Sequence record: OR836606.1
DNA: 64,000 nucleotides
Source: Staphylococcus phage LY01
Strand: one strand, 5' to 3'
Positions 2,874-53,751 of the stretch are shown here, in pieces. A program made the translations under genes and the position numbers. Within the stretch, counting starts at the first letter, position 1. Each line of letters starts with the position of its first letter. The notes under the pieces are model-generated. The model did not search any database, was not told where the DNA came from, and worked only from the letters and a program-made list of their open reading frames with translations.

Positions 2874-3300
2874 TTATTCTATATAACTTTCTATATCTAC
2901 TTCATTTTGTTTAATTGTCATGTCATGGAAAGATTTCATTGAGCTTGTTACAATAGCTTGAGCCACTTGGTTGACCAGTAGACCAATATTCTCAATTCCT
3001 AATTTATAAGGTAATTCTCCCGCACATTTACTACAAATATCTTCATTAGCACAATACATAGGACTTCTAAACTCTAATACTTTACCCATATAATCATCAA
3101 CATTTTCAGGAGTTAACAAAATTAATTGACCCGATCTCGCATTGTTATCTTTGAAATATCTATACATCATTAATGATGCGTTTGACTTGTCTAATGTCAA
3201 TTTAAGAAAATGATTCGTTCTACAATCCGAACCTTTTTTATCTAAAACTGTTGTTTGAAAGGCTGACATCAATTGCTTGGCTTGATCTAATTTAATTTTT
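2874..3300 (-). CDS. rpoC: RNAP beta-prime subunit, C-terminal exon (region F/G, trigger-loop region); spliced, no own start codon needed
   Basis: RSPMYCANEDICSKCAGELPYKLGIENIGLLVNQVAQAIVTSSMKSFHD aligns to E. coli beta-prime [65 protein letters not shown] aligns to EDDCGTHEGI. The reading frame is open upstream of the annotated Met as far as the intron boundary. Confidence 0.65.
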
Positions 3301-3449
3301 CTGTATTAGTACAATACAGATAAGACTATATCTTCTAATGTAATATATTTAGTCGTTGAACAACTTGTATTAAGTTGATGCTGATTAATCTAATAAGATA
3401 CTTCCAGCAATTAATATTATTTAATGTGAGCATCAAGTTTACCCACCTT
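3301..3449 (-). mobile_element. mini group I intron (family copy, minus orientation) in beta-prime C gene
   Basis: On the minus strand it contains the family core TTAATTGCTGG / ATCAGCATCA / GTTCAACGACTAAATA / GATATAGTCT plus a P9 hairpin (ctgtattgtactaatacag). It is flanked by coding sequence that aligns to beta-prime. Confidence 0.6.
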
Positions 3450-3461
3450 CTTGAGTCATTT

Positions 3462-3636
3462 ATGTTAACTATATTAAAATAATACAGATCAGACTATATC
3501 AAAAACTCTATATGAGCTTAATTATATTTAGTCGTTGAACACTATTTTTAGTGATGCTGATTAACTTAATAAAGGATCTCAGCAATTAATAATTTTTCGT
3601 ATATTATATTACTATAATAAAGGGCATTCATATACC
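3462..3636 (-). mobile_element. mini group I intron (family copy, minus orientation) in beta-prime C gene
   Basis: Same P/Q/R/S core elements as the other copies. The 5' leader aatgccctttattatagtaatataatatacgaaaaat is shared with the copies at 10056 and 10669. About 12-17 nt of exon (atgactcaagaaggtgg) separates it from the intron at 3301-3449. Confidence 0.6.
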
Positions 3637-4431
3637 TAGTGCACGTCCAGCTGAACCAGCAGTCATGACATCTCCAAACATATAAAGTTCATTAGGATCA
3701 ATTCCTTCAGCTAGTGAGCTTTTAGCAATTCTAATTTTACTTGGATCAGCAAAGTTTTTATTGGCTCCACGAATCAATGCAGTTAATTTATAGTTATTAC
3801 CGAATGAACCACGTGAACCACTATCATAAATATCTAAATCGGCTAAACCTTTTAATTCTTCTTTACTTAATTTAATTAATTCTTTTTCAATAGCAGATAT
3901 TGCGTTTAATTCTTCTCCAGAAGTATTCAACTCTTTTTCATATTTAACTAATAATTCTTCTTTCTTTTGTTTAACCTTATCAGTAGCAGTCATCATTGTA
4001 GTAGTTAAACTAGAATTAATAAAACTAGCTATAGAGAATCCTAACCATTGTAATTTATCAATGTAATCTGACATTTCTTGTGTAGTAATAATATCATTGA
4101 GTAATAAGTTTGATAAATCAGATTGAAGCTTACCAATTCCAGAACCACCCATATCGTGATTCATATATCCTATAATTGGCCCAATTTTATTATCTAAAAT
4201 AAATTTATTAAATATATATCTACCTACAGTAGTCTTTTCATCTTTTTTATTATAAACTAAATCTTTTTTTAATGTAAATTTATCTGATGGATTATACATT
4301 GGTTCTGTATTCTGTCTAAAGGCAAATAATTCTTTTAACTTGTCTAATGTAATATCATCTTTACCAACACTTAATAATGTAGATACTTCTTTTTCGTTAA
4401 GTGTTTTATTCTCATAATTCATATTAGCCAA
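3637..4431 (-). CDS. rpoC: RNAP beta-prime subunit, middle part (regions E-F), start of the C-terminal beta-prime gene
   Basis: TTVGRYIF aligns to E. coli TTVGRAIL. YDSGSRGSFGNNYKLTALIRGANKNFADPS aligns to [28 protein letters not shown]. The annotated C-terminal tail ...GI and its stop are read-through into the intron; the true exon ends near 3637. Confidence 0.6.
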
Positions 4432-4970: not shown

Positions 4971-6560
4971 TTGAAATATCTTAATAGATTAAAAAATCTT
5001 AAATTCTATTCAATATCTGGATATAAAATTAAAGCTATTGATGAAGAAATCGAAGATAAGAAAAAAGATCAGTTAGTTATTTATAAAGGTTTTAAAGAAA
5101 ATTCATTTACTGATTTTTTAAATAGTGGATTATTATATCATCAGAATTTTAAGAATATCTATATTCCGAGATTGTATAGAACTAGAAATAGAAGAACTAG
5201 ATTATTAACAAATATAACAGATTATCAAAAAGAGATTAAATCTAAATCTTACAAACAGTATAGAGTTGAAAGAAATGAGAAATTATTTAAAGGTAGAAAC
5301 TATATTGTTGATTCAACTAAATTTATTGATTTAGAAGATAAATCATTAATAACTAGAAATTTTAATACAGTATTGGATTCAATTAAATCAACTTTTAATT
5401 CTTTAAATAATGCAGAAGATTACAATAATTTATTATATGTAATTAATGTTGATGGGTATAATAAGTCTTCTCAAGAAGCAATTAGACCTAATACAAAAGA
5501 TTTCATGTCAAGCTTATTCATGATGATTAAGAATCAAGAGGAATTACCTCATGGTGAAAATCAAAATATTAATTTATTATTTGTCTCATTAGATAATGGA
5601 ATAATGTTTAAATTTGATTATAAAGATTATAATAAACTTAATATGAGACTTAGACAAAGATTAAGAAGAATCATTGATACTAATACACAAGCATTAGATA
5701 CTGATGAAATTAGTAAAGTTGAAGATGATGACAATACTGAAGCTGTAGATGGAGTAATTAAAAAGAAAGCATTTGATAATGTAGGAACAATTGATCCTAT
5801 CGAAGCTCAGAACGATGAAGCTGAATATGAAAATGATGAACAGTTAGAAAAAATATCTAATAAAATAGATTCTACAATAAGTTATATTAGATCATTAGAC
5901 AATACTGAAATGGATGTTGATGATGAATATAATATAGCTATGATAATTGAAAAAGAATTAAATAATAATAAAGATTTAATTGATATTGATACTGAAACAT
6001 TATATTCGGATGTATTGGATAAAAATGATTCATTTAAATCAATTAAGAGAAATATTAAAAATAAATCTAGTATTGGCGATGAAGCACTTAAAAATACTAA
6101 AAAGATATTAGCTTTATCCAAGAAACAAGATGAATACCTTAATGATTTAGAGGATTTTAGCTTTTCTGAAGATAAATTAATCGATAGAGAAATTAATGAA
6201 AATATTAATAATATTAATGAAGAGACTATTAATAATATTGCTTCTAATGATTTTGATGTTTCTTATATGCAAAAAACATTTAATAAAGACTTTATTGATA
6301 TAATGAAAAGCTTTAATGACAATGAAGATATTCCGGTATTTATTAATAAAATGAATATTGAAGATAATTCAGATAGTCAATCATTAAAAAATACAGTTAA
6401 AGTTCAATTTAGAAGTCCAGACGGTTTAACTCATAATGTTAAATTTGATGTTCCTAAAGTTATTGACGGTAAGTACATGAAGCTTAACGGTGGGAAAAAG
6501 ATATTAACTAAACAGTTAATGATGTGGCCAATCGTTAAATATAAACCGGATTGTTCATAA
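4971..6560 (+). CDS. rpoB: RNAP beta subunit, N-terminal exon 1
   Basis: C-terminal part VQFRSPDGLTHNVKFDVPKVIDGKYMKLNGGKKILTKQLMMWPIV aligns to E. coli rpoB [35 protein letters not shown]. A long acidic insertion is present. A Shine-Dalgarno-like sequence lies upstream. Confidence 0.55.
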   Translation: MKYLNRLKNLKFYSISGYKIKAIDEEIEDKKKDQLVIYKGFKENSFTDFLNSGLLYHQNFKNIYIPRLYRTRNRRTRLLTNITDYQKEIKSKSYKQYRVERNEKLFKGRNYIVDSTKFIDLEDKSLITRNFNTVLDSIKSTFNSLNNAEDYNNLLYVINVDGYNKSSQEAIRPNTKDFMSSLFMMIKNQEELPHGENQNINLLFVSLDNGIMFKFDYKDYNKLNMRLRQRLRRIIDTNTQALDTDEISKVEDDDNTEAVDGVIKKKAFDNVGTIDPIEAQNDEAEYENDEQLEKISNKIDSTISYIRSLDNTEMDVDDEYNIAMIIEKELNNNKDLIDIDTETLYSDVLDKNDSFKSIKRNIKNKSSIGDEALKNTKKILALSKKQDEYLNDLEDFSFSEDKLIDREINENINNINEETINNIASNDFDVSYMQKTFNKDFIDIMKSFNDNEDIPVFINKMNIEDNSDSQSLKNTVKVQFRSPDGLTHNVKFDVPKVIDGKYMKLNGGKKILTKQLMMWPIVKYKPDCS

Positions 6561-6803
6561 CAGTCCACTTTTATAGCAATATGAAAGTAAAAAGAATATT
6601 AATTGCTGAAACGGTTTTATTAAATTAATCAGCATCAATTATTATTAATTGTTCAACGACTAAATATATTCACTCTTATTGAGAGTATGATATAGTCTGT
6701 GCTCTAAATTGATAATTTAGAGATTGTATAAAATACAGATAAAAAATTCATATCAGAATTTCTCTTAACATATTTTTATAATATGATTAGGAGGTGAAAT
6801 TAA

Positions 6804-8006
6804 ATGATAAACAAAAACGGAAAATTAGTTAAATCTTTCAAAACTAGAATATACCCAAATCAAGATCAAATAAATTATTTCAATAAATGTTTTGGTGTAA
6901 GAAGAAAAATATGGAATATGGCTTTAGAAGACTATCAAAATAAAGATGATGACGCTCAATTTAGCGGATTTGATTATCAGAAAAAATTAAATAATGAAAT
7001 TTATGAATCTGGTAAATATCCCTATCTTTATGAAGTTAATAGCATGGTTAGACAAGAAGCTTTAAAAGACTTAGATGAATCTTTTAAAATATATAGAAAT
7101 GAACAAAAGAAAGCTAGAAAGTCTAAAGATGCAATTGACACTGAAAAATTTAAACCCAAGTTTAAAAAGAAAAAACATTCTAATGAGTCATTTAGATTTA
7201 TGGTTAAAGATAAGAAATATTTACCTATTAGATTTTTATCTAAGAAATGGATAAAAATTTCCGTAATGAAAGGAATTAAACCTTTTATAATCAAATCTAA
7301 AGAATCAATGAAGTTTATTAATTCTAATAACCATAGATTTCTCACTTACACTATAAGCAGAAAGAATGAAAAATATTATATTTCTGTAACTTATGAGATA
7401 AACAATTATAAGAAACAGAGATTGAATAATGATTCAATTGGTATTGATATGGGTATGAAAACACCATTAGTATGTGTAGATTCAAATGGTCAAACATTTG
7501 AATTTAAAATCCCACATAACTTATGGAAACAAGAAAGAAAAACTGAGAAATTGCAAGCAAAACTATCAAGTAAGAAATATTATTCAAAATCATATTACAA
7601 AACTTTAAAACAATTAAGAAAATCTTATAATAGAGAGTGTAATATATTAGAAGATTATAGAGATAAAATCACTAATTGGTTAGTTAAAAACTATAAAGTG
7701 ATTAATATTGAACCATATAGTCATAAAGCTTCTAATAATTTAAGAAATGCTCGTAGATCTAATAGAAGATTTGGCAAATATGATTTCCTAGAAAAATTAA
7801 AGTATAAGATTTTACAATATGATAATGAATTGAATATAATTACTAAAAAGAAAACTACACAAACATGCTCATCATGCGGTTATGTAAGAACTAACGATGA
7901 GAAACTTGTCATTGGCGATGATATTCATGATTGTCCTAAATGTAATGTAGTTCTTGATAGAGATTTAAATGCGGCTAAAAATATTCTAGATTTAAAATAT
8001 GTTTAA
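6804..8006 (+). CDS. tnpB: TnpB (IS200/IS605 OrfB-family RNA-guided nuclease), no TnpA
   Basis: RuvC-I (IGIDMGMK) and RuvC-II (VINIEP) motifs, Zn-finger (CSSCGY...CPKCN), and RuvC-III (DRDLNAAKNIL). Strong Shine-Dalgarno site. Confidence 0.85.
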   Translation: MINKNGKLVKSFKTRIYPNQDQINYFNKCFGVRRKIWNMALEDYQNKDDDAQFSGFDYQKKLNNEIYESGKYPYLYEVNSMVRQEALKDLDESFKIYRNEQKKARKSKDAIDTEKFKPKFKKKKHSNESFRFMVKDKKYLPIRFLSKKWIKISVMKGIKPFIIKSKESMKFINSNNHRFLTYTISRKNEKYYISVTYEINNYKKQRLNNDSIGIDMGMKTPLVCVDSNGQTFEFKIPHNLWKQERKTEKLQAKLSSKKYYSKSYYKTLKQLRKSYNRECNILEDYRDKITNWLVKNYKVINIEPYSHKASNNLRNARRSNRRFGKYDFLEKLKYKILQYDNELNIITKKKTTQTCSSCGYVRTNDEKLVIGDDIHDCPKCNVVLDRDLNAAKNILDLKYV

Positions 8007-8180
8007 TTAATTTCACAAAATAAAAGATATGAGAGTCGCCTGCGGTCAGCGGGAGACGATAAACGGGTGATAAGCTAATGTCTGATTAGCTTTACAAGGA
8101 GTACAGAGGTACCTCTATACGTTAGTCACTGAGCCAAGTGTATTTTATACAAGATCTTGCCTTTAGATTTAATTATTTAA
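8007..8180 (+). ncRNA. putative omega-RNA / IStron right end
   Basis: A GC-enriched segment with several hairpins (gtcgcctgcggtcagcgggagac...) lies immediately 3' of tnpB. This is atypical for a genome at about 25% GC and sits where TnpB guide-RNA scaffolds are encoded. Confidence 0.45.
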
Positions 8181-8189
8181 AATCAAGAT

Positions 8190-9556
8190 TTAACAAGACA
8201 GACAGTATGGATTACAACTAACTATAATAAATTCATTATAGAAAAATTTGGTTATAAAGAAAATGCTGAAACTGAATGGATCAAGAAAGTTATTGAAGAT
8301 GACCAAGTTATAGATTATATTGAAAATAAATCTAACTTATCTGTTAAAAAAGGTAATGCTTCTTTAATCAATAATAAATATGTAACTTCAGTTATTTATA
8401 ATAGCTTATCTAGAAATATATTAAATTTCCAAGATGACACTAATGTACTTGAATTTAATCAAAGAAGTTTATTAGCGATGATTTCTGATAGTGCTAGTTT
8501 ATCTAAAATTGATTATGATCAAGATAAATATTTCCCTATTGGTTATAATATTAATAAATCTAAATTAATATTAGCAGATAAGACAGAATCTGTTATGTAT
8601 GAATGTAGTAAGACTAATATTAAGTCAATGGAAATGAATATATTTGATTACCTTATTGATAAATTAGACAATGAAGTTGACTTTGGTGTTATTGATAAGA
8701 AATTCAGTAAGAATATTCAGGCTAATAAGACTATGGCATTTTCACGTGTTAAAATTACTAATAAATTAGTACCTACAATTTTATTATTAGGTTTCTATAA
8801 AGGTTTAACTAGTATTCTTGATCTTTATGAAGTTGATTATAAATTTACTACTGAGAATGAAAGAATTAGTATTCATGATAAAAAGAATAAAATTAAATTC
8901 CAAGATGGTTATTTAATATACTCTACTGATAAATTAAGATATGATTTATTAATGTCTGGATTAACTGTATTGCCTACATCACAATACAATTTCAGTGATT
9001 TTGAAACTGAAACACCTTACTTAGAATATTTCAATGATAAATTCTACAGTCGTAATGTTGGTAAAGGTATCAAAAATACTATGGATTTAGCAATGGATCC
9101 TATTACTAAAGAAGTATTAAGGGATTTAAAACTTCCTGATAATATGGTTGAATTATTACTATTAGCTAATACGATGTTAGAAGATGTATCAGCTAGAGAT
9201 CATAATGATATGGGAATTTATCGTGTACGTGGCCCAGAACAAATTAATGCATTATTATATAAAATGATGGCAAATGCTTATAAAGAATATTCAGATTCTT
9301 ATAATAATAAAAATCCTAAGAATATTTCAGTTAAACAAGATCAATTAATTAAAACTATTATGGAACAACCTACAGTGGATGAAGTATCTGATTTAAACCC
9401 TAACTTAGAAATAGATAAGATGACTTCTGTTACATTTAAAGGACCTGCTGGACGTAACTCTGAACAATCATATGAACCTGATATTCGTTCTTACGATGAA
9501 AGTATGCAAGGTATATTAGGAATAAGTACACCTGACAGTAATAAGGTAAATTACTT
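8190..9556 (+). CDS. rpoB: RNAP beta subunit exon 2
   Basis: The frame is open from about 8200, upstream of the annotated ATG at 8478. KGPAGRNSEQSYEPDIRSYDESMQGILGISTPDSNKV aligns to E. coli [39 protein letters not shown]. The annotated C-terminal LPLITVM* is intronic read-through. Confidence 0.6.
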
Positions 9557-9725
9557 GCCCTTAATTACAGTAATGTAATTCAATGAAAATTTATTAATTG
9601 CTAAAAATCTTTATTAAGATGATCAGCATCACTAAAAATAGTGTTCAACGACTAAATATAAATTCACTTATTATAAGTGTAAGATATAGTCTAATCTGTA
9701 TTAGATTATTATAGAATAATACAAA
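9557..9725 (+). mobile_element. mini group I intron in beta gene
   Basis: Family core elements; P8 hairpin cacttattataagtg; P9 ctgtattag...taataca. The exon ends ...AAGGT and the next exon begins after ...ACAAATG. Confidence 0.65.
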
Positions 9726-9885
9726 TGAGGTATTGTCAGACAACTTTCATATGATACACAAATTAAATCTACTCGTGGTTATACTGATGGTAGTAAAAAA
9801 GATGTAAGTGATACAGCTTTATACACACCATTAGAATTATTAAATCCATATACTAGTAGACATGCGGATATACGAAATGAGGTAA
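9726..9885 (+). CDS. rpoB: RNAP beta subunit exon 3 (about 50 codons)
   Basis: (G)IVRQLSYDTQIKSTRGY...LNPYTSRHADIRNE aligns to E. coli INSLSVYAQTNEYGFL...IPFLEHDDANRAL. Confidence 0.55.
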
Positions 9886-10031
9886 GTTCGCAATAAAATT
9901 ATTTAATTGCTGGAAAGCTTTATTAAGTTAATCAGCATCAGTTAAAGACTGTTCAACGACTAAATAATAATTACCATTTATATGGTGAAGATATAGTCTA
10001 ATCTATATTAATTTAATATAGAATAATAAAA
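9886..10031 (+). mobile_element. mini group I intron in beta gene (shortest copy; 5' leader GTAAGTTCGCAATAAAATTAT)
   Basis: Family core; P8 hairpin accatttatatggt; P9 ctatattaatttaatatag. Confidence 0.6.
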
Positions 10032-10055
10032 ATGTCACCTCGTATAGGAATGACT
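10032..10055 (+). CDS. rpoB: RNAP beta subunit micro-exon (about 8 codons, SPRIGMTG)
   Basis: Lies between two introns. With the flanking exons it reads HADIRNE-SPRIGMTG-TQAKHLIATKTNDRPLVGSG, which aligns to E. coli [30 protein letters not shown]. Confidence 0.45.
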
Positions 10056-10238
10056 GGTATTAAAATGAATGCCCTTTATTATAGTAATATAATATACGAA
10101 AAATATTTAATTGCTAAGAATCTTTAATTAAAGAAATTAGCATCAAATTAATACAATTTGTTCAACGACTAAATAATATTATACTTATTTAAGTATTTGA
10201 TATAGTCTGATCTGTATTAAATTAATACAGTTAACATA
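10056..10238 (+). mobile_element. mini group I intron in beta gene
   Basis: Begins after the exon ...ACTGGT and ends ...ACATAAATG. P5 stem shows covariation (GCTAA/TTAGC here versus GCTGG/TCAGC in other copies). P8 is atacttatttaagtat. Confidence 0.65.
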
Positions 10239-10668
10239 AATGACTCAAGCTAAGCATTTAATTGCTACTAAAACAAATGACCGTCCATTAGTTGGTTCCG
10301 GTGTAGATAAATCTTTAGCCTACCAAATTTCAGACACATTTGCTTTTAAAGCTAAAGAAGATGGAAAAGTAACTTCTATTAATGAGAAAACAGGATTAAT
10401 GATTGTTGAATATATTAATGGAGATAAAGATGTAATTGATATATCTGAAAAACTTGCTAAAAACTCTAATGGCGGATTTTATCAAAATAATAAACTTACA
10501 CCGCAATTTGAAGTAGGTAAGAAATTTAATAAAGGACAAATATTAGCTAAAAATGATAATTACTTTGCAGGTTCTGGTAGTAATAATGATATTCAATTCA
10601 CTGCTGGTAAATTATCTAAAGTTGCAGTAGCTAGCTCATATGGTATTATAAATGCCTTTCATTATAGT
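10239..10668 (+). CDS. rpoB: RNAP beta subunit exon 5
   Basis: TQAKHLIATKTNDRPLVGSGVDKSLAYQ...GKVTSINEKTGLMIVEY aligns to E. coli [29 protein letters not shown]. The exon ends ...VAVASSYG, aligning to VAFMPWNG. Confidence 0.65.
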
Positions 10669-10828
10669 AATATAATGTATAAAAAATATTTAATTGCTGG
10701 AAAGTCTTTATTAAGACAATCAGCATCATTAATTTATAATGTTCAACGACTAAATAATATTATACTTAATTAATATGTATTTGATATAGTCTAATCTGTA
10801 TTGATTAACTCTTAATGCAGTTAATATA
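10669..10828 (+). mobile_element. mini group I intron in beta gene
   Basis: Inserted between WNG|Y-NFED codons (exon ...TCATATGGT | intron ... ATAAATG | ACTTATGAGGAC). Family core elements present. Confidence 0.65.
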
Positions 10829-11591
10829 AATGACTTATGAGGACAGTTCTATTATTTCTAATAGTATGTCTGAAGCTATGTCAACTAAAGTTACTATGAA
10901 GAAAACAGTAAATTTAGCTTCCAATACGAATATTCAATATATTGTAAAAGAAGGTCAAAATGTACGTACAGGAGACCCATTAATGATATTTGAGAATTCA
11001 TTTGATGATGAAGGTATCGGTTCTTTATTAGATAAAATTGGATCTGAATTTGAACAAGAAATCCAAGATATTTCTAATAGAGCTGTTAGATCTAAATATA
11101 CAGGCGTAATTAAGAAAGTAAATATCTATTATAATGATGATATTGAAAATATGTCTCCTACATTAGCTAAATTGGTTAATAGTTATATTAATAAATCTAA
11201 GAATAAATATAAAGAATATAAAAATGCAGTTAAAGGTAACAAATCTACATTACCTGGATTAGATGTAGATATTCCTGCAGTTGAAAAAATCAATAATGAA
11301 AAAATTAAAGGTGAAAAAGTTGATGGTGTTCTTATTGAAATCTTTACAGAATATGAAGATGATATGAGTATCGGTGATAAGATTAGTTTCTATGGGGCGT
11401 GTAAAACGGTCATTGCTGACGTTACTCCACCTGACGAATCCCCTTATGCAGAATATAGACCTGATGAAGAAATTGAAGCTATATTCTCTCCATTAAGTAT
11501 CGTGTCTCGTATGACTACAGATATATATCTCATGTTGTTTACCAATAAAGCACTCATAGAGCTTAAGAGAAAAGTTAAAGATATGCTTTAA
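10829..11591 (+). CDS. rpoB: RNAP beta subunit C-terminal exon
   Basis: TYEDSSIISNS aligns to E. coli YNFEDSILVSE. MSIGDKISFYGACKTVIADVTPPDESPY...EAIFSPLSIVSRMTTDIYLMLF aligns to GDKMAGRHGNKGVISKI...[20 protein letters not shown]. Confidence 0.75.
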
Positions 11592-17862: not shown

Positions 17863-17867
17863 TTAAT

Positions 17868-19406: not shown

Positions 19407-19520
19407 TAATCTAAATAATGAACTATCTTTTTTGATTATTATGACTTACTCAAGAAAAATAGATATATGATAGATTGTTGCTATTAAATATTATAGATTA
19501 GAAAAAGAAAGAAGTGATAT

Positions 19521-34843: not shown

Positions 34844-35626
34844 TTATATATTATAAATTAAAGTCTTCAGTTTTGCAACAAATTTATCCTGATAAATTGA
34901 AAATTTTAACATAATCAATTCACTATATACATCTGTTTCTGGGGCATAGATATCTATTTTAACTAAAGGACAAATTATTTTATCTTTAGACTTTTTATAT
35001 TTTAACCCTAATAAATACTTTTTAGAAGTTCTAAAATCAATAAGGTAGTCTTTTTCATTATAAATATAATAAGGGTCCTTAACAATAACTTTGTCTTTGG
35101 TAAATATAAATTTAAAGAACTCGGAAGGTTTCCTTTCTTTAATATCTAATAAACTATCATTATCTAATTTAAAATTTAGACTTGGTTTAAAAGAACTAAA
35201 ATAATTAATAGCTTCTAATGAATAATTTAATTCTTCATCTAATCTATCTTCATCAAATTCATCATTATTAATAATAGTTTCTAAATCAGATTCTCTAGTT
35301 ATTTTAATACCACTATTATCAATTTCATTAAAAAATTCAACTTTAATAATTTTATCCCCTTTATTCTTTCTTACTTCAATAAAATCTTCTACATTAAAAA
35401 TGCAATTTTCAACAGGTAAAAGATAATCATAAATTGGATTATCTTCTATAATTTCTACTTCGACTGCATTGGGATTGTCATCTGATTTAGAATAATTTTT
35501 TATAATGTTTTTATTTAAACTAATATACTTACTTCCATCAACAATATTATTGAATAACTTAGATATCTCTTCAAAAGTCATTACTAATTTATTTACTATT
35601 TTTGATTCTTCAATAATAATGGACAT
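34844..35626 (-). CDS. hypothetical protein
   Basis: 260 aa ORF; its start overlaps the stop of the DNA polymerase part-1 gene (ATGA). Confidence 0.4.
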   Translation of the reverse strand: MSIIIEESKIVNKLVMTFEEISKLFNNIVDGSKYISLNKNIIKNYSKSDDNPNAVEVEIIEDNPIYDYLLPVENCIFNVEDFIEVRKNKGDKIIKVEFFNEIDNSGIKITRESDLETIINNDEFDEDRLDEELNYSLEAINYFSSFKPSLNFKLDNDSLLDIKERKPSEFFKFIFTKDKVIVKDPYYIYNEKDYLIDFRTSKKYLLGLKYKKSKDKIICPLVKIDIYAPETDVYSELIMLKFSIYQDKFVAKLKTLIYNI

Positions 35627-36548
35627 TAACCAATTTCCCCCTCTAATTCTTTAATGATATCATCAGAAGCTTCAATAAGAGAAGGTAAACCATGAAACTC
35701 TTGAGCAAAAGCAACACTGTCTTGACTATTAAATTTACTTACGAATTCAGTATTAAAATCATAATTATCTTTATCTTGCTCATATTTAGGTACCGTTATT
35801 CTATCTTTATCAAGAATATTCATCTTACCTACATGTCCTTCAGGTGTTATATTAAATGCTCTAATAATAGATGGATATAGAGAACTTAAGTCAAAGTCAC
35901 AAACATTACTAAATAATCTATTAGATCTAATATCTTTACCTTTAACCAATACGTCTCCATTACGTTCGATTAACATCATATCAGCTACAAATCCGCCACG
36001 AATTTTATCAGCATTAGGATCCGATAATAATTTTGAATGATTATTGCTTAATACATATCCTTGATTTTCAAAGAATACTGAACTACGATTTCTTAAACAA
36101 ATAGTTTTCTTAAGTGCTTTACTAGGTCTTGTTCTAGTCATGTCTACAATAGAGAATAATAGATCAAACATATTAGTGTTATGTTCAATCAATGCAGCTA
36201 ATACAGTATCCTTAATATTATAAAGAATAAATGTATAGTAATCTCTAAAATGTAAATCAGAGATAGAACCTTCATATACATCTTTAGTAACTCCTGCTTC
36301 TTTTTCTCCAATATCATTTAACTTAACTGATTCCAAAGCACCATTGGGCTTATTAATATTTGCATATAACGCTAATTGGTCAATCCAATTAGTATAAGAA
36401 TTAGTCTCAAATGTAGAAGATCTATTAGCCATATCAGTAGCATTTTTATCTAATTTATAATATGCTTTTTTATCTTCAAATTCTTTAGAACAGAAATAAT
36501 CTGCAGGATTTTCTCCATTAGCTCTAATACGTTCAAATATTGCAGGAA
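35626..36548 (-). CDS. family B (T4 gp43-like) DNA polymerase, part 1, exon 3 (polymerase motif A)
   Basis: DFDLSSLYPSIIRAFNITPEG aligns to T4 gp43 DLTSLYPSIIRQVNISPET. The exon begins (K)LDYDFPAIFERI, aligning to T4 IEGFDVPYIMNRV. It ends ...ELEGEIG* with a stop, so the polymerase gene is split here. Confidence 0.75.
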
Positions 36549-36714
36549 AGTCATAATCTAGCTTTTATATTTATTAAATATAAAATAGACTATATCATAC
36601 TCATTAATATGAGTGAATATATTTAGTCGTTGAACAACTCTTATTAAGTTGATGCTGATCATTCTAAAAAGAACGTTCCAGCAATTAATATTCTTTTAAT
36701 GGAACCTATTATCA
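36549..36714 (-). mobile_element. mini group I intron in DNA polymerase gene (minus orientation)
   Basis: Family core elements. Splits the Exo II motif between ...ICTAWN and LDYDFP (T4 ...IFTGWN|IEGFD). Confidence 0.6.
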
Positions 36715-37018
36715 ATTCCATGCAGTACATATGTCAGGCTTACTAATTTCATTAATATAATATAAGAAAGATTTAATTACTTGCATTTCTGTATCTAATT
36801 CATATATCTCAAATTCTAAACCTAAATTTTTACCAATTTCACTATTTTCATTATTATAAATTTCATTTAAGTTTTTAATTAATTTATCTTGATCTTCCAT
36901 AGTTTCTTTATAAGTGTCAGTGTCATATTTAAGAGCAAATGTTAATACTTTTTTCTTACTCCAATCCACTACAGTTATAATATTTATCTCTGCCTCAGCT
37001 TTAAGCGGGTCCGGGACA
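36715..37018 (-). CDS. DNA polymerase part 1, exon 2 (Exo II region)
   Basis: VPDPLKAEAEINIITVVDWSKKKVLTF aligns to T4 FPDPMKAEYEIDAITHYDSIDDRFYVF. PDICTAWN aligns to PAIFTGWN. Confidence 0.7.
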
Positions 37019-37151
37019 ATTTGTATTAAAAGTAATACAAATTAGACTATATCTTCTTAGTAATATATTTAGTCGTTGAACATTAAATTTTTAATGATGC
37101 TGATTATCTTAATAAAGAATTTCCAGCAATTAATATTATTTTATCTGAGCT
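37019..37151 (-). mobile_element. mini group I intron in DNA polymerase gene
   Basis: Family core. The junction ...TTAAAGGT | intron | CCCGGACCC restores LKVPDP in frame. About 133 nt, among the smallest copies. Confidence 0.6.
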
Positions 37152-37642
37152 ACCTTTAACCCAGTTACTTGAGATCCATCAACCTCAATATCGAATAGAC
37201 ATATATCTATACCAACTTTACTGTCTAAATTCTTTTTAATATACTCATTGATATTATAATCTTCTATATTTATATCAGAACCATGAGCATTATTTAATAA
37301 ATGGAAATCTTTTAGTTTTCTATATTCTTGCCAATTACCTGACTTCATAATTCTATCGTATTCTGCTTTATCTTGAGAATTACCAGCTTCTTTAACTACT
37401 GATTTGATAATATCTTTATGCTTACAAATAACAGTTCTTACTTTATCTTTTTCAATAGAACCTACAATTTTATTAGGAGGTAACCAATGTTCATCTTTAG
37501 TTACATAATAATGCATCATAGGATCTGTTATTTCCATATGTTTTTTAGTACCATCCTCTTCTTTAACTACCATTACTACTTTTTCTTTACCAGAAGCAGT
37601 TTCTTTTTTATTTAAATATGTTGATTTAATGAATCTTCCCAT
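37152..37642 (-). CDS. DNA polymerase part 1, exon 1 (N-terminus, Exo I motif)
   Basis: ICLFDIEVDGSQ aligns to T4 ANCDIEVTGDK (Exo I DxE). The annotated tail VAQIK* is intron read-through. Confidence 0.7.
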
Positions 37643-48165: not shown

Positions 48166-48198
48166 TTATTCTTTAGTTAAAGAGTATAAAGCTTGTAC
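48166..48198 (-). CDS. rpoC: RNAP beta-prime N gene, last exon (VQALYSLTKE*)
   Basis: Joined to the previous exon it gives ...NESNMLVQALYSLTKE, aligning to E. coli ...PSQDVVLGLYYMTRD. Confidence 0.5.
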   Translation of the reverse strand, partial: VQALYSLTKE

Positions 48199-48327
48199 CA
48201 TATTATTTATGATAATTAGACTATATCTTCTTAGTAATATATTTAGTCGTTGAACAACTTATATTAAGTTGATGCTGATTAATCTAATAAGATACTTCCA
48301 GCAATTAATATTATTTATTGAGAGCAT
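48199..48327 (-). mobile_element. mini group I intron (minus orientation)
   Basis: Family core elements; 3' end ...ATAAATAATATG. Confidence 0.55.
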
Positions 48328-48461
48328 ACAAGCATGTTACTCTCATTACCCAAATTACGTACTGAATTACCAGTGTAGTTTAGGTAGTTAGTTTTCTTAT
48401 TAAGAAGTTTATTAGCTTCTTTATTAGCCTCTACAGTCCAGAGAGATCTGATAGAAATCAT
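48328..48461 (-). CDS. rpoC: RNAP beta-prime N gene exon (DMISIRSLWTVEANKEANKLL...)
   Basis: D-MISIRSLWTVEANKEANKLLNKKTNYLNYTGNSV aligns to E. coli [36 protein letters not shown]. Confidence 0.6.
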
Positions 48462-48621
48462 ATCCATTTACGTTATCTATATTAAGATAATATAGATCAG
48501 ACTATATCTTTACTTTAATAAGCATATTATATTTAGTCGTTGAACACTATTTGTAGTGATGCTGATTAAGATAATAATCTTTCCCAGCAATTAATAATAT
48601 TTAAATACGGCAATATAAATT
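48462..48621 (-). mobile_element. mini group I intron (minus orientation)
   Basis: Family core; 5' end GGT|AATTTATATTGCC..., 3' end ...AACGTAAATG|GATATG. Confidence 0.6.
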
Positions 48622-48630
48622 ACCGTCAAA
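48622..48630 (-). CDS. rpoC: 9-nt micro-exon TTTGACGGT (Phe-Asp-Gly of the catalytic NADFDGD loop)
   Basis: The splice model gccgaT | intron | TTTGACGGT | intron | GATATGATTTCT reads ...LGADFDGDMISIRSL, reconstituting the universally conserved ADFDGD. No other junction choice gives the motif. Confidence 0.5.
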
Positions 48631-48811
48631 CGTTTATGTTATCTATAATAAATGATATCATAGACCAGACTATATCATCATCTCAATTGAGATATATTAT
48701 ATTTAGTCGTTGAACAACTTATATGAAGCTGATGCTGATTGCTCTAATAAGAGTTTTCAGCAATTAATAATATTTTCATTCTTAAATCACTTTAAGAAGC
48801 GACTTTTTCAA
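48631..48811 (-). mobile_element. mini group I intron (minus orientation)
   Basis: Family core. Its 5' leader GTCGCTTCTTAAAGTGATTTAAGAATGAAAATATTATTAATTGCT is shared with the copy at 49393-49550. Confidence 0.6.
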
Positions 48812-48825
48812 ATCGGCACCTAACG
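48812..48825 (-). CDS. rpoC: 14-nt micro-exon (..LGAD) of beta-prime N gene
   Basis: cgttaggtgccgat lies between the large intron and the next mini intron and supplies G-A-D of GADFDGD. Confidence 0.4.
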
Positions 48826-49200
48826 CTATTTAATTTATAATTAAATTTGGACTATATCATAAACCTAAATATTAGGTTCCCTCACACTTCGGGAATTCAT
48901 TTCCCTACTCTACTCACTTCGTTATAGTATTTCAACTATACTTATTCTCTATATAAGAGTTACATTTATTGTTTTCGATAGTCTCTGAACGTTTATCCAT
49001 CATGTGGATACTTCGCTGCTAGACTTTCCCATTATTAAATACCCTTAGCATTTTCAGCATAGGTCATCAAAGAGATTTTTTCTGTCTTTCGACTGCATGT
49101 CACGCTATCCATTACTGGCATACGTTGTAGCTCTCTAAGCATTAGGGTTTACAAGCAATTCATAAGGTATTTTTTATCCTATATTACTATAAGACTGGAG
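48826..49200 (-). mobile_element. larger group I intron (about 370 nt, no ORF), same R/S core with expanded peripheral domains
   Basis: The minus-strand reading contains GAATTGCTTGTAAAC (P), GTTCAGAGACTATCGAAAAC (R-like) and GATATAGTC (S). It is about 80% identical to the segment at 56265-56640. The 5' boundary is uncertain (about 49190-49215). Confidence 0.55.
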
Positions 49201-49392
49201 CGTAAGTTACTCCGGCATAACTGTTGTGTATAATAGCGGTATCTATAAATACATCTTCATCAACAGGATATTCATGAACAACTTTAGGATAATCTTTAAG
49301 TACAATATCGTCTAAAGTAATTTCAGGAATTGTATCAACTGTAGTCAATATTTTAATTTTGGCAGGTGCAACATTCAAGAAATTTTCGCAAA
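49201..49392 (-). CDS. rpoC: RNAP beta-prime N gene exon
   Basis: (C)ENFLNVAPAKIKILTTVD...NSYAG; follows region ...HVVYSRYPINTLV, which aligns to E. coli EHPVLLNRAPTLHRL. Confidence 0.45.
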
Positions 49393-49550
49393 CTATATTA
49401 AATTAATACAGATCAGACTATATCATTACCTACTTTTAGGTATATTATATTTAGTCGTTGAACAAGTTTAATTGACTTGATGCTAATTAACCTATTAAAG
49501 TCTTTTAGCAATTAATAATATTTTCATTCTTAAATCACTTTAAGAAGCGA
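49393..49550 (-). mobile_element. mini group I intron (minus orientation)
   Basis: Family core elements; 3' end ...TTTAATATAG. Confidence 0.6.
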
Positions 49551-53050: not shown

Positions 53051-53751
53051 TTAGAATTTAATCATATTAGATACAAATGAACTATTTGAAGATTCCAATA
53101 CTCTAACACCAATAGATTCAATAATATCTTTACCTGGTTTAATATGATCTTCAATCATACTATCATAGTCAATAAAAGGTCTAAACTCTTCAGGAATTGT
53201 ATTACCTTCAACTGCAATTACATTTAAACCGTTTTTAACTAAACTTTCATTCTTAAATACTTCTCTAAATCTATCTAAAGTATCTTCATCAGTTATCTTA
53301 TTTTTAATATCTCCAAATGTACTAATATTCAATTTAACTGCTAATATCTTAGCAGGTAATGCTATTTCTTTTTCTGGGAACATTATATTCCATGCTAAAG
53401 CAGCTCTATATGCCATTTGAGAATAAGGGTCTTTATATACCTCAGCATTATTAGCTTTAAACGGTTTTAAGAATTCGATTTCTCCATTATCTAATGATTT
53501 CTTAATCATTTCTTCTATATCTTTAAATTTACGTATTATCTTAATACGATCTACACCGGTTTTATTTTCTAAAATATCTTTTTGTAATATTTCAGTAAAT
53601 AGTTCTCTAATACGTTTATTAGTATTAACTTTTCTAATAGCCATACCTTTAACATCTAAATCTGGAGGTTGAATTAAATTACCCTCTTGTTGAATTACTG
53701 ATGATGCATAAGTTTTCTTTTTATCAGTTGTTAATTGTTTATCAAGTAAAA
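53051..53751 (-). CDS. DNA polymerase part 2, C-terminal exon
   Basis: The frame is open upstream of the annotated Met. ...DKKKTYASSVIQQEGNLIQPPDLDVKGMAIRKVNTNKRIRELFTEILQKDIL aligns to T4 gp43 ...[51 protein letters not shown]. Confidence 0.6.

What the first reader, a model, noticed from the sequence alone, without database searches (positions are those of the whole stretch)
9557..10828. A family of ultra-compact (about 130-180 nt) group I introns, at least 14 copies plus 2 larger relatives, riddles the phage RNAP and DNA polymerase genes
**Shared repeat**
A repeat is shared at 3301-3449, 3462-3636, 6561-6745, 9557-9725, 9886-10031, 10056-10238, 10669-10828, 36549-36714, 37019-37151, 48199-48327, 48462-48621, 48631-48811, 49393-49550, 53752-53893 and 54162-54315. 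Larger versions sit at 48826-49200 and 56265-56720.

**Group I core elements**
Each copy carries, in order:
- TTAATTGCTGG-AAAG (P-like; compare Tetrahymena AAUUGCGGGAAAGG).
- ATCAGCATCA (Q-like).
- GTTCAACGACTAAATA (R/P7 5' strand; compare GUUCACAGACUAAAUG).
- A short hairpin (P8).
- GATATAGTCT (S/P7 3' strand; compare AAGAUAUAGUC).
- A P9 hairpin.

The stems covary between copies:
- P5: GCTAA/TTAGC versus GCTGG/TCAGC.
- P8: atactta/aagtat, accat/atggt, cactta/aagtg, actctc/gagagt.
- P9: ctgtatt/aatacag, ctatatt/aatatag.

This covariation argues for a functional RNA rather than a DNA repeat.

**Evidence for splicing**
Every copy is flanked by coding sequence that aligns to RNAP or DNA polymerase only when the element is removed. 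They sit in the most conserved motifs: [14 protein letters not shown] and WNGYNFED of beta; NADFDGD of beta-prime; Exo II and DTDS of DNA polymerase.

**Why it matters**
At about 130-180 nt these would be among the smallest group I introns known. Sixteen copies in three genes is an extreme intron load.
Basis: partly seen in the sequence, partly recalled or inferred. Interest (0 to 1): 0.9.

Follow-up and report, generated by a model that had tools for sequence, protein, structure and literature searches.

The report
Miniature group I introns riddling phage genes
Five essential polymerase genes of a Staphylococcus jumbo phage are interrupted by 17 group I introns, 14 of them only 140-188 nt long (some lacking helices normally thought to be core) and two carrying the RNA-guided nuclease TnpB, which makes this a natural test of how small a splicing ribozyme can be.

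Summary
**Observation: confirmed.** The window comes from a Staphylococcus jumbo phage about 94% identical to Madawaska and S6. It holds 15 copies of one repeat: 14 ORF-less elements of 140-188 nt, plus one 1650-nt element with the same core. Two introns of a second, larger type bring the total to 17, in five genes.

**Evidence for splicing**
- Phage S6 has none of the elements. Deleting them in silico restores gapless full-length matches to all five S6 proteins.
- All 15 follow an exon T and end in G.
- Each guide sequence pairs with its own 5' and 3' exons (0 of 20,000 permutations match).
- 91% of structure cells pair, against 68% in shuffles, and 36 of 53 pairs show compensatory changes.
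- Rfam's group I model matches at up to 59.5 bits, but only when short segments are searched.

**New points**
- Four introns lack both P2 and P8.
- Exons between introns are as short as 9 nt.
- Both ORF-bearing introns encode TnpB, the IStron layout.
- One of these sits in a different gene in phage Machias, with a compensated guide.
- Copy number ranges from 0 to 24 among close relatives.

**Not shown:** self-splicing itself, and how the elements move.

**Verdict:** new variant of a known kind.

The parts
9548..9727 (+). Intron C (180 nt, small type, with P2 and P8), phase 2 in vRNAP beta
   Evidence: Absent at a single point in Madawaska and S6. Exon -1 is T and the last base is G. RF00028 scores 37.3 bits.
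9870..10034 (+). Intron D1 (165 nt, small type, no P2, has P8), phase 0 in vRNAP beta
   Evidence: RF00028 scores 59.5 bits, above the gathering score of 50. P1 is TGCGGAT/GTTCGCA, 7 bp. Present in Madawaska at 97% identity and absent in S6.
10035..10058 (+). 24-nt mini-exon between D1 and D2 (encodes SPRIGMTG)
10059..10242 (+). Intron D2 (184 nt, small type, P2 with GUAA loop, P8)
   Evidence: Shares the target GGT|ACTCAAG with A1 and is 83% identical to it.
10645..10832 (+). Intron E (188 nt, small type) in the YG^TYEDS motif of beta
   Evidence: Empty site in Madawaska and S6..
6552..8201 (+). Intron B (1650 nt): small-type ribozyme core at 6552 to about 6760, TnpB ORF at 6804-8006, and a roughly 195-nt tail ending at the 3' splice site (IStron-like)
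   Evidence: Absent in S6 and Madawaska. The ORF matches Pfam OrfB_IS605, Cas12f1-like_TNB and HTH_OrfB_IS605. The whole element aligns end to end at 86% identity with an element in a different Machias gene.
3457..3633 (-). Intron A1 (177 nt, small type) in the beta-prime-mid bridge-helix region
3441..3456 (-). 16-nt mini-exon between A1 and A2
3287..3440 (-). Intron A2 (154 nt, small type, no P2, no P8)
   Evidence: P1 is GTGGGT/GCTCAC and P10 is ATCAAG/CTTGAT.
36562..36714 (-). Intron F (153 nt) in the Exo II motif (WN^LDYDF) of the DNA polymerase exonuclease subunit
   Evidence: P1 is ATGGAAT/GTTCCAT.
37017..37158 (-). Intron G (142 nt, no P2, no P8), phase 1
48199..48338 (-). Intron I (140 nt, the smallest; no P2, no P8) in beta-prime-N
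   Evidence: P1 is 7 bp and P10 is 8/8 bp. RF00028 scores 30.9 bits. The orthologue in PB50 has a compensated P3, has P8 and lacks P5.
48465..48621 (-). Intron J3 (157 nt) inside the GADFDG^D motif
   Evidence: RF00028 scores 43.4 bits.
48622..48630 (-). 9-nt mini-exon (TTTGACGGT, encodes FDG) between J2 and J3
48631..48811 (-). Intron J2 (181 nt, P2 with GUGA loop)
   Evidence: RF00028 scores 54.6 bits, above the gathering score..
48812..48825 (-). 14-nt mini-exon between J1 and J2
48826..49209 (-). Intron J1 (384 nt, large type, ORF-less); exon -1 is G
   Evidence: RF00028 scores 27.2 bits. The pairing GGAG/CTCC follows the group B IStron rule.
49389..49561 (-). Intron K (173 nt, same lineage as J2: target CGAT|, guide GTCG)
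   Evidence: RF00028 scores 39.9 bits. A third copy of this lineage sits at TACGAT| in the Madawaska prohead protease gene.
53752..53935 (-). Intron M (184 nt) in the DNA polymerase catalytic subunit, phase 1
54162..54315 (-). Intron N (154 nt, no P2, no P8) in the DTDS^ motif
   Evidence: P1 is TGACAGT/GCTGTCA.. The site is occupied in five relatives and empty in four.
54831..56741 (-). Intron O (1911 nt): large-type core at 56741 to about 56265, TnpB ORF at 56158-55010, and a roughly 180-nt tail
   Evidence: The ORF matches Pfam OrfB_IS605 (3e-21) and TNB (2.1e-19). It is 31% identical to B's TnpB and keeps the RuvC motifs.
4971..11591 (+). vRNAP beta gene (1417 aa after removal of B, C, D1, D2, E)
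   Evidence: Annotation from Madawaska.
2874..4431 (-). vRNAP beta-prime mid-domain gene (408 aa after removal of A1, A2)
35626..37642 (-). DNA polymerase exonuclease subunit gene (573 aa after removal of F, G)
48166..50712 (-). vRNAP beta-prime N-terminal gene (503 aa after removal of K, J1, J2, J3, I)
53051..57234 (-). DNA polymerase catalytic subunit gene (644 aa after removal of O, N, M)

Best explanation
**What the elements are**
- The repeats are group I introns, transcribed as part of five essential genes: three virion RNA polymerase subunit genes and two DNA polymerase subunit genes.
- They are removed from the mRNA by the standard two-step, guanosine-initiated transesterification.

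**How each intron would splice**
- An internal guide sequence pairs with the last 3-7 nt of the intron's own 5' exon. This forms P1, with a U.G wobble at the cleavage site.
- The segment just upstream of the guide pairs with the 3' exon, forming P10.
- The intron's terminal G docks in the P7 pocket. P7 is A[C]GACUA/UAGUCU, with a bulged C next to a G-C pair.
- Exon ligation restores an open reading frame colinear with the intron-free genes of phage S6.

**The small family**
- It has 14 ORF-less members of 140-188 nt.
- It keeps P1, P3, P4, P6, P7, P9 and the joining strands.
- It treats P2, P8 and, in at least one orthologue, P5 as dispensable.

**The TnpB-bearing members**
- One member of the small family (B) and one intron of a second, larger family (O) carry an intact-looking TnpB gene followed by a tail of about 190 nt that ends at the 3' splice site. 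This is the IStron layout.

**Inferred, not shown**
- TnpB, guided by an RNA spanning the 3' junction, cuts intron-free alleles in co-infecting phages. This would drive homing and co-conversion of neighbouring ORF-less introns.
- New sites are chosen through the guide sequence.
- The mechanism of ectopic movement is unknown.
For: **Precise presence/absence**
- S6 lacks all 17 elements and Madawaska lacks A1, A2, B, C and E, in each case at single points.

**In-silico splicing restores the genes**
- Gapless matches to S6 over 408/408, 1417/1417, 573/573, 503/503 and 644/644 aa, at 96-98% identity with no internal stops.
- Seven introns are in phase 1 or 2, and internal exons are 9, 14, 16 and 24 nt.

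**Splice-site features**
- 15 of 15 small-core introns follow an exon T and end in G.
- All 17 are in the sense orientation of their host gene.
- P1 own-exon pairing totals 73 against 43.4 +/- 4.4 for permuted exons. P10 totals 82 against 57.4 +/- 4.1. In both tests 0 of 20,000 permutations reach the observed value.

**Core helices**
- P3 is 6/6 bp in every copy, in 8 sequence versions. Swapped strands pair 61%, and only 1% pair fully.
- The formal count gives 91.1% of cells paired against 68.3% shuffled and 31-44% slid. 36 of 53 pairs are compensatory, and the score is 0.504 against 0.152.
- RF00028 aligns full-length to the copies tested, at up to 59.5 bits.

**Comparisons with other phages**
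- PB50's orthologue of intron I has a fully compensated P3: TAATAT/ATATTA becomes TTTCAT/ATGAAA.
- The B element sits in a different Machias gene, its ends fall exactly at the splice sites, and the guide is compensated: GGAT/GTCC becomes AGAT/GTCT.
- The J2/K lineage (guide GTCG) sits at CGAT| in three different genes.

**TnpB**
- Pfam domains and RuvC motifs are present in both ORFs.

**Published precedent**
- Korn et al. relied on experimentally determined mature mRNAs of the related phage AR9.
Against: - No RNA or protein data exist for this phage, so splicing is inferred.
- Most copies score below Rfam's gathering threshold (15-43 bits). None are found at all when the whole window is searched.
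- Four introns lack P8, and PB50's orthologue lacks a P5 stem. These helices are normally part of the group I core, so unaided self-splicing of the smallest forms is uncertain.
- The helices are short and almost entirely A-U (18-27% GC).
- The register of P5, P6 and P8 in the covariation alignment was fitted with a folding program. The P1 guide position was chosen to maximise own pairing.
- For the TnpB-homing step, no omega-RNA was identified. There is no Rfam hit, and the fold z-score is only -1.84.
- No TnpA was found.
- Within-genome copies are only 58-83% identical. Recent in-genome transposition is therefore not evident.
Confidence: 0.9

Rival explanations
1. The elements are group I-derived introns that no longer self-splice. 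The smallest forms (no P2/P8, or no P5) would depend on a shared helper. This could be a phage- or host-encoded RNA chaperone or maturase, or complementation by intact family members. They would then be 'introns' but not autonomous ribozymes.
For: - P8 is absent in A2, G, I and N, and P5 is absent in PB50's copy.
- The helices are extremely A-U rich and only 4-7 bp long.
- With 8-24 similar copies per genome, a common cofactor would be economical.
- These phages reportedly do not plaque at 37 C. That would fit marginally stable RNA folds, though this link is speculative.
Against: - The catalytic core strands (J3/4, J4/5, J6/7, J8/7 and the P7 pocket) are invariant in all copies.
- P1, P10 and P3 are maintained by compensatory change.
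- No candidate maturase ORF lies in the small introns.
Confidence: 0.35
2. The ORF-less copies are non-autonomous DNA transposons (mini-IStrons). They would be moved at the DNA level by an IS200/IS605- or IS607-type TnpA supplied in trans. The ribozyme would serve only to keep insertions phenotypically silent.
For: - B and O have the IStron layout.
- B occurs at unrelated sites in two phages, and its ends coincide with the splice sites.
- Insertion sites end in GAT, GGT or AGT, reminiscent of the TTGAT target of group A IStrons.
- ORF-less IStrons are known.
Against: - No Y1 transposase was found in the window or in about 190 kb of related phage DNA. Staphylococcus was not among the ten genera listed for the 122 phage records with TnpA hits.
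- The small introns do not end in the TCAG terminus of group A IStrons.
- Targets differ between lineages and track each lineage's guide sequence, rather than following one fixed motif.
Confidence: 0.15
3. The elements are intergenic DNA repeats, such as regulatory or REP-like elements, lying between genuinely split genes. The fragments would be translated separately and assemble into the enzymes.
For: - Jumbo-phage RNAP genes are naturally split.
- Nine of the small introns end in ...ATG. For phase-0 introns this creates apparent ORFs, and annotators have called them separate genes, for example 'beta subunit (x3)' in PB50.
Against: - Exons of 9-24 nt cannot be genes.
- Seven elements lie within codons.
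- S6 encodes each protein as one uninterrupted ORF.
- All 17 are in the sense orientation, and none of the 15 copies is intergenic.
- The guide-exon pairing and helix covariation would have no explanation.
Confidence: 0.02

Closest known systems
Self-splicing group I introns of Staphylococcus phage Twort and other Firmicute or T-even phages (subgroup IA2)
   Same: - Group I core with P, Q, R and S elements.
- Located in conserved motifs of essential phage genes.
- Several introns in one gene.
- U.G at the 5' splice site and a terminal G.
   Different: - The small family here is 140-188 nt and has no helices between P7 and P3.
- P2 and P8 are optional.
- Known phage introns are, to my knowledge, over 200 nt even without ORFs.
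- The density here (17 in 64 kb, with exons down to 9 nt) is far higher.
- The mobility gene is TnpB, not a GIY-YIG, HNH or LAGLIDADG endonuclease.
IStrons: CdISt1 (group A, IS200/IS605) and BcISt1/CboIStron (group B, IS607). Sources: Tourasse 2014, PMC4227781; Zedaveinyte 2023, PMC10690162
   Same: - B and O have a 5' group I ribozyme, then a TnpB ORF, then a 3' tail whose end is the 3' splice site.
- They are TnpB-only, like many IStrons.
- B follows exon T, as in group A.
- J1 and O follow exon G paired to an intron C, as in group B.
- ORF-less derivatives exist.
- The same element occurs in unrelated genes.
   Different: - The host is a lytic jumbo phage, not a bacterial chromosome or a temperate Clostridium phage.
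- Both group-A-like and group-B-like types share one genome, which was reported not to occur.
- Targets (CGGAT, TAGAT, GGAG) and termini (ACAG, CAG, TAG) differ from the published TTGAT...TCAG and GG...CGG.
- ORF-less relatives are 140-188 nt against 482 nt, and they outnumber the TnpB-bearing copy 14 to 1.
- No omega-RNA or TnpA was identified here.
Intron-disrupted RNAP and DNAP genes predicted in phages MarsHill, Madawaska and Machias, and spliced genes of Bacillus phage AR9 (Korn et al., bioRxiv 10.1101/2020.12.14.422802)
   Same: - The same phage clade, the same genes, and variable exon numbers between phages.
- In fact the same elements: the family has 8-22 copies in those three genomes.
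   Different: - That work inferred exons from protein alignment only.
- It did not describe the RNA family, its size, its structure, its guide sequences or the nature of the 'transposase' and 'homing endonuclease' ORFs.
- A later paper reported that Rfam finds no introns in a relative.
Azoarcus tRNA-Ile intron (about 205 nt) and engineered sunY/Tetrahymena mini-ribozymes (own knowledge)
   Same: Minimal group I ribozymes that keep P3-P9 and rely on direct packing of short helices.
   Different: - The elements here are 20-30% shorter.
- They are A-U rich instead of G-C rich.
- Some lack P8 or P5, which Azoarcus retains.
- Their activity is untested.
Mobile intron of jumbo phage PhiPA3 in an RNAP gene (bioRxiv 10.1101/2023.09.30.560319)
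   Same: An intron in a jumbo-phage RNA polymerase gene whose encoded nuclease can attack the intron-free allele of a co-infecting phage.
   Different: - That nuclease is a protein-guided homing endonuclease.
- Here it is an RNA-guided TnpB, and its activity is only inferred.

Membership tests
Group I intron (Rfam RF00028) | Match to the family covariance model at or above the gathering score (50 bits) | tested here: met
   - D1 scores 59.5 and J2 54.6 bits, with full-length model alignment.
- Other tested copies score 15-43 bits (E from 1e-9 to 0.7), below threshold.
- All are lost when the whole 64-kb window is searched.
Group I intron (Rfam RF00028) | Conserved core helices P3-P4-P5-P6-P7-P8-P9, with the P3/P7 pseudoknot, supported by covariation | tested here: met
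   - 91.1% of cells are paired against 68.3% in shuffles.
- 36 of 53 pairs are compensatory.
- P3 is 100% paired, with 5 of 6 pairs covarying.
- P7 is invariant.
Group I intron (Rfam RF00028) | P8 helix present in every member | tested here: not met
   - A2, G, I and N have only a 7-8 nt linker between the P3 3' strand and J8/7.
- PB50's orthologue of I has P8 but no P5 stem.
Group I intron (Rfam RF00028) | 5' splice site after a U that forms a U.G wobble with an internal guide sequence (P1); 3' exon pairing (P10) | tested here: met
   - U.G is present in 14 of 14 small introns plus B.
- P1 is 3-7 bp.
- Own-versus-permuted exon tests give 0 of 20,000 for both P1 and P10.
- J1 and O have G-C instead.
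Group I intron (Rfam RF00028) | Terminal guanosine (omega G), and a G-binding pocket in P7 (bulged nucleotide next to a G-C pair) | tested here: met
   - 17 of 17 introns end in G.
- P7 is A[C]GACUA/UAGUCU in all 15 small-core copies.
Group I intron (Rfam RF00028) | Precise excision that restores the host gene | tested here: met
   In silico only: gapless, stop-free matches to all five S6 proteins.
Group I intron (Rfam RF00028) | Guanosine-dependent self-splicing in vitro or in vivo | not testable with these tools
   No transcript or biochemical data are available.
IStron, group A (group I intron fused to an IS200/IS605 element) | 5' group I ribozyme followed by an IS605 OrfB/TnpB gene, with element ends coinciding with the splice sites | tested here: met
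   - Intron B has the core at 6552 to about 6760 and TnpB at 6804-8006.
- Its ends match the boundaries of the transposed copy in Machias.
IStron, group A (group I intron fused to an IS200/IS605 element) | Insertion after TTGAT, ATTAT or TTTAT, and a 3' terminus of TCAG | tested here: not met
   - B follows CGGAT in the window and TAGAT in Machias, and ends in ACAG.
- This is similar to the published motifs but not the same.
IStron, group A (group I intron fused to an IS200/IS605 element) | Omega-RNA encoded at the right end, extending into the flanking target | tested here: inconclusive
   There is no Rfam match, and the tail folds only marginally better than shuffles (z = -1.84).
IStron, group A (group I intron fused to an IS200/IS605 element) | TnpA (Y1) transposase, or remnants of it | tested here: not met
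   - tblastn with IS608 TnpA gives no hit below E = 1.6 in the window or in about 190 kb of related phage DNA.
- Published IStrons are often TnpB-only.
IStron, group B (group I intron fused to an IS607 element) | Last 5' exon base is G, paired to C in the intron | tested here: met
   J1 and O have exon ...GGAG| pairing with intron CTCC (rule).
IStron, group B (group I intron fused to an IS607 element) | Insertion after AGGG, TGGG or GAGG, and a 3' terminus of CGG | tested here: not met
   The target is GGAG, and the termini are ...GCAG (O) and ...ATAG (J1).
Homing-endonuclease-bearing mobile group I intron (T4 td type) | Intron-encoded LAGLIDADG, GIY-YIG, HNH or His-Cys box endonuclease | tested here: not met
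   - The only intron ORFs are TnpB.
- Fourteen small introns and J1 have no ORF.

The most novel reading that the evidence does not exclude
**Claim one: size.** The 140-154 nt members are the smallest natural, autonomously self-splicing group I ribozymes. That would show that P2 plus P8 (or P5) are dispensable for catalysis.

**Claim two: mobility.** The family proliferates in lytic jumbo phages as a non-autonomous partner of TnpB-bearing IStrons.
- New sites would be chosen through the RNA guide sequence, by reverse-splicing-type transposition. This might use the reverse transcriptase that these phages encode.
- Occupied sites would then be fixed by RNA-guided TnpB homing and co-conversion.
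Probability: 0.2. Interest if true: 0.92.

Novelty: new variant of a known kind. Interest (0 to 1): 0.72.

Why it matters
- **Ribozyme size.** If the smallest copies self-splice, they reset the lower size limit of a natural group I ribozyme. They also provide naturally occurring 'deletion mutants' (no P2/P8, or no P5) for structure-function work and for compact RNA-circularisation tools.
- **Splicing order.** Three introns within 40 coding nucleotides share 9- and 14-nt exons. Neighbouring ribozymes must use the same few bases for P1 and P10, which raises testable questions about splicing order and exon skipping.
- **Host range of IStrons.** TnpB-bearing introns in a lytic jumbo phage extend IStrons to a new host type. 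They suggest RNA-guided homing or exclusion between co-infecting phages.
- **Intron gain and loss.** Copy number ranges from 0 to 24 among genomes about 90% identical. [quoted passage not shown]
- **Annotation.** Standard Rfam scans miss these introns completely. Phage genes are consequently mis-annotated as fragments.

Tried and rejected
- **Rfam on the whole window.** Both the gathering threshold and E <= 0.01 gave no group I hit. This is a filter artefact and not evidence of absence, because 1.5-kb segments give hits.
- **Plain MAFFT alignment (A1).** It was out of register in P3 3', P5 and P6. I replaced it with an anchor-based parse and an N-padded alignment. MAFFT still shifted the P9 block, so P9 was left out of the formal count.
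- **P1 search allowing any G in the 5' region.** This discriminated poorly between own and swapped exons. I redid it with fixed guide positions and a permutation test.
- **Omega-RNA in B's tail.** There was no Rfam family match and only a weak fold signal.
- **TnpA.** The CP220 element turned out to be TnpB-only. IS608 TnpA recalled from memory was validated by 100% hits in Helicobacter phages, but it found nothing in the Staphylococcus phage DNA I held.
- **Literature for a documented size record.** I found no explicit statement. The AR9 genome paper and the journal version of Korn et al. are not held.
- **The 3-mismatch 16-mer at 38102-38117.** The profile search does not support it, so I discarded it.
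- **Intein, pseudogene or assembly artefact.** I considered and rejected these. The elements contain stop codons, they are conserved at the same sites in independently sequenced phages, and their removal is exact.
Full report
**Source and observation**

The window is 25% GC. It comes from a Staphylococcus jumbo phage of the S6/Madawaska/MarsHill clade, an AR9-like group. Its best match is about 94% identity, with only 65-85% of the query covered.

The reported repeat is real. The 16-mer GTTCAACGACTAAATA occurs exactly 15 times, against 0.87 expected. A profile HMM built from the copies finds exactly those 15 (E <= 1e-26). It finds none in intergenic DNA and no further degenerate copies.

**Exact boundaries from empty sites**

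Phage S6 lacks every element, and Madawaska lacks several of them. In each case the extra DNA is missing at a single point. This fixes 17 intervening sequences:
- 14 ORF-less elements of 140-188 nt: A1, A2, C, D1, D2, E, F, G, I, J2, J3, K, M and N.
- One 1650-nt element (B) whose 5' end is the same core.
- Two elements of a second type: J1 (384 nt) and O (1911 nt).

All 15 small-core elements follow an exon T and end in G. J1 and O follow an exon G and end in G. All 17 lie in the sense orientation of their host gene.

**Removal restores the genes**

Deleting the 17 elements gives five open reading frames with no internal stops. Each aligns without a single gap to the full length of the uninterrupted S6 protein (gene names):

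| Gene | Match to S6 | Identity |
|---|---|---|
| vRNAP beta-prime mid | 408/408 aa | 96.3% |
| vRNAP beta | 1417/1417 aa | 97.5% |
| DNA polymerase exonuclease subunit | 573/573 aa | 96.9% |
| vRNAP beta-prime N | 503/503 aa | 97.8% |
| DNA polymerase catalytic subunit | 644/644 aa | 96.4% |

- Seven introns lie in codon phase 1 or 2.
- Exons between neighbouring introns are 24, 16, 14 and 9 nt. Three introns interrupt G-A-L-G-A-D-F-D-G-D within 40 coding nucleotides.
- The recurrent ...AAATG at the 3' ends is therefore the intron terminus and not a start codon.
- These facts exclude separately translated gene fragments.
- Introns occupy 6277 nt, which is 9.8% of the window.

**Group I identity**

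Rfam finds nothing in the whole window, either at gathering thresholds or at E <= 0.01. On 1.5-kb segments, RF00028 aligns over its full length to the copies. Scores in bits were 59.5 (D1), 54.6 (J2), 43.4 (J3), 39.9 (K), 37.3 (C), 30.9 (I) and 27.2 (J1). The gathering score is 50.

The miss is a speed-filter effect on short, A-T-rich targets. It explains why a published Rfam scan of a relative reported no introns.

**Structure and covariation**

I parsed each intron using invariant anchors. The results by helix:
- **P3:** 6/6 bp in all 15 copies, in 8 sequence versions.
- **P4:** 6 bp.
- **P5:** 4-6 bp.
- **P6:** 5-7 bp.
- **P7:** invariant, A[C]GACUA/UAGUCU, with the bulged base next to a G-C pair that is typical of the guanosine pocket.
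- **P9:** 7-11 bp.
- **P8:** present in 10 small introns and in B. It is physically absent in A2, G, I and N, where only a 7-8 nt linker remains.
- **P2:** a hairpin with a GNRA loop occurs in eight copies. All four P8-less introns lack it.

P3 positions are fixed by anchors and not by folding. Own strands pair 100%, swapped strands pair 61%, and only 1% of swaps pair fully.

I then ran a formal count on a structure-registered alignment that included P1, P10 and the P7 pseudoknot:
- 91.1% of cells are paired, against 68.3% in shuffles and 31-44% with slid partners.
- 36 of 53 pairs have changes on both sides.
- The covariation score is 0.504 against 0.152, and 0 of 500 shuffles reach it.

One caveat applies. 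The register of P5, P6 and P8 was set with a folding program, so those helices lean towards the model. P3, P4, P7 and P10 do not.

**Guide sequences**

Each intron carries a G, 9-17 nt from its 5' end, that pairs with the exon's last T. The bases that follow pair with the upstream exon. Examples:
- N: TGACAGT/GCTGTCA
- I: TGAGAGT/GCTCTCA
- F: ATGGAAT/GTTCCAT

With guide positions held fixed, own exons pair far better than permuted exons:
- P1 totals 73 against 43.4 +/- 4.4.
- P10 totals 82 against 57.4 +/- 4.1. This pairs the 3' exon with the segment just upstream of the guide.
- In both tests, 0 of 20,000 permutations reach the observed value.

The P10 test is independent of how the guide was located. 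An RNA guide that matches both flanking exons is the hallmark of group I splice-site selection, and a DNA repeat would not explain it.

**Comparison between phages**

Family copy number by BLAST:

| Phage | Copies |
|---|---|
| AH12 | 24 |
| Machias | 22 |
| PB50 | 15 |
| Madawaska | 12 |
| MarsHill | 8 |
| S6, DC4, PALS_2, SA1 | 0 |

- Individual sites are occupied in some phages and empty in others.
- At the site of intron I, PB50 has an element of the same length with the same guide. Its P3 is fully compensated: TAATAT/ATATTA becomes TTTCAT/ATGAAA. It has a P8 hairpin and no P5 stem, whereas the window copy has P5 and no P8. P5 and P8 therefore each look dispensable in a roughly 140-nt intron sitting in an essential gene of an isolated phage.
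- Within the window, copies are 58-83% identical. The family is therefore old and diverse, and not a recent burst.
- Lineages keep their guide and target. The J2/K lineage (guide GTCG) sits at CGAT| in three different genes, including Madawaska's prohead protease. A1 and D2 share the target GGT|ACTCAAG in two different genes.

**TnpB and the IStron connection**

The ORFs in B (400 aa) and O (382 aa) are TnpB. Both match OrfB_IS605, Cas12f1-like TNB and HTH_OrfB_IS605. They are 31% identical to each other, and both keep the RuvC motifs.

A 5' ribozyme, then TnpB, then a tail ending at the 3' splice site is the IStron layout. The published rules also explain the odd G before J1 and O. Group B IStrons follow an exon G that pairs with an intron C, and here that pairing is GGAG/CTCC.

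Targets and termini differ from the published motifs, however. Group-A-like and group-B-like types coexisting in one genome was also reported not to occur.

The whole B element aligns end to end (86% identity) with an element in a different Machias gene:
- The flanks are unrelated.
- The ends fall exactly at the splice sites.
- Removal fuses the flanking ORFs in frame.
- The guide is compensated: GGAT/GTCC becomes AGAT/GTCT.

This is direct evidence for ectopic movement of the unit.

No omega-RNA could be identified and no TnpA was found. TnpB-guided homing and the route of ectopic movement therefore remain inferences.

**Breadth**

The core 16-mer occurs in more than 120 IMG/VR stretches, many on 200-400 kb contigs. 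At least 20 of 70 unique sites have the same compact layout, with a P3-to-P7 core of 105-120 nt. The window family measures 93-108 nt. The compact form therefore seems to be a wider, under-annotated class in large phages.

**What is known and what is new**

Already known:
- Intron-disrupted RNAP, DNA polymerase and other genes were predicted in MarsHill, Madawaska and Machias from protein alignments, by analogy with AR9.
- IStrons and ORF-less IStrons (482 nt or more) are known in Firmicutes and in Clostridium botulinum phages.

Not found in the searchable literature:
- Recognition of one family of 140-188 nt group I introns.
- The P2/P8-less (or P5-less) forms.
- The 9-nt exons.
- The guide-target lineages.
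- The TnpB identity of the intron ORFs in these lytic jumbo phages.

The statement that natural self-splicing group I introns are generally 200 nt or longer (Azoarcus is about 205 nt) is from my own knowledge. One paper held here says most fungal rDNA group I introns exceed 200 nt, apart from degenerate 56-81 nt forms.

**Verdict**

The elements are best described as a new, miniature variant of group I introns, linked to TnpB-bearing IStrons. Self-splicing of the smallest forms and the mobility mechanism remain to be shown experimentally.

Noticed in passing
window 6804-8006 (+) and 55010-56158 (-): The ORFs inside introns B and O are TnpB (IS605 OrfB / Cas12f-like), not classical homing endonucleases. 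They are 31% identical to each other and both keep the RuvC motifs. Relatives annotate the homologues as 'transposase' or 'homing endonuclease'.
   Followed up: yes
whole window; segments 9400-10950 and 48100-49650: Rfam RF00028 detects these introns only when short segments are searched. Both whole-window scans, at the gathering threshold and at E <= 0.01, return nothing. Pipelines using default Infernal filters will miss the family.
   Followed up: yes
L127 2242-3894 (Machias MW349128 205526-207178): The complete B-type ribozyme-TnpB element lies in an unrelated Machias gene, between CPT_Machias_207 and _209. Removing it would fuse the two ORFs in frame. The guide is compensated (AGAT/GTCT).
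   Followed up: yes
L129 151-412 (PB50) versus window 48140-48400: The orthologous intron at the same site has P8 but no P5 stem, whereas the window copy has P5 but no P8. P3 is fully compensated between the two.
   Followed up: partly
window 48826-49209 and 54831-56741: The two large-type introns follow an exon G (…GGAG|) paired with an intron C, as in group B IStrons. Their target and 3' termini (TAG, CAG) differ from the published GG...CGG pattern. An 'AG' occurs at both boundaries of each.
   Followed up: partly
IMG/VR loci L007-L126: Many metagenomic phage contigs of 200-400 kb carry group I introns with the same invariant P7 strand and an equally compact core of 105-120 nt from P3 to P7. 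Their full lengths and host genes were not determined.
   Followed up: partly
L130 (Madawaska 50506-50912, prohead scaffold/protease gene): A J2/K-lineage small intron (same P2, guide GTCG) sits at TACGAT| in a third gene. It has a further compensated P3 (AACTAT/ATAGTT) and a J8/7 variant (GACA in place of GATA).
   Followed up: partly
window 16777-19759: This block differs from S6 and Madawaska. It encodes tail-tip and Laminin_G_3 (lectin-like) proteins and is probably a host-range module.
   Followed up: no
window 23250-24204 (inside ORF 22338-24266): BLAST against Madawaska gives a ladder of hits offset by about 240 nt. This indicates tandem repeats of about 80 aa within this 642-aa protein.
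   Followed up: no
window 285-356: This is a weak Rfam hit (Plastid-ycf2, 36 bits, below threshold) at the position where relatives annotate a tRNA-Asn, flagged as a pseudogene in Madawaska. ARAGORN calls no tRNA anywhere in the window.
   Followed up: no
window 51523-52863 (-) and 46796-48086: These regions are not colinear with S6. One holds a 446-aa ORF with no Pfam match. Several S6 genes are also absent from the window between the two aligned blocks.
   Followed up: no
literature: Korn et al. report that these phages encode an RNA-directed DNA polymerase of unknown function and do not plaque at 37 C. Both facts could bear on intron mobility (reverse splicing) and on the stability of very A-U-rich ribozymes. 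Neither link was tested.
   Followed up: no
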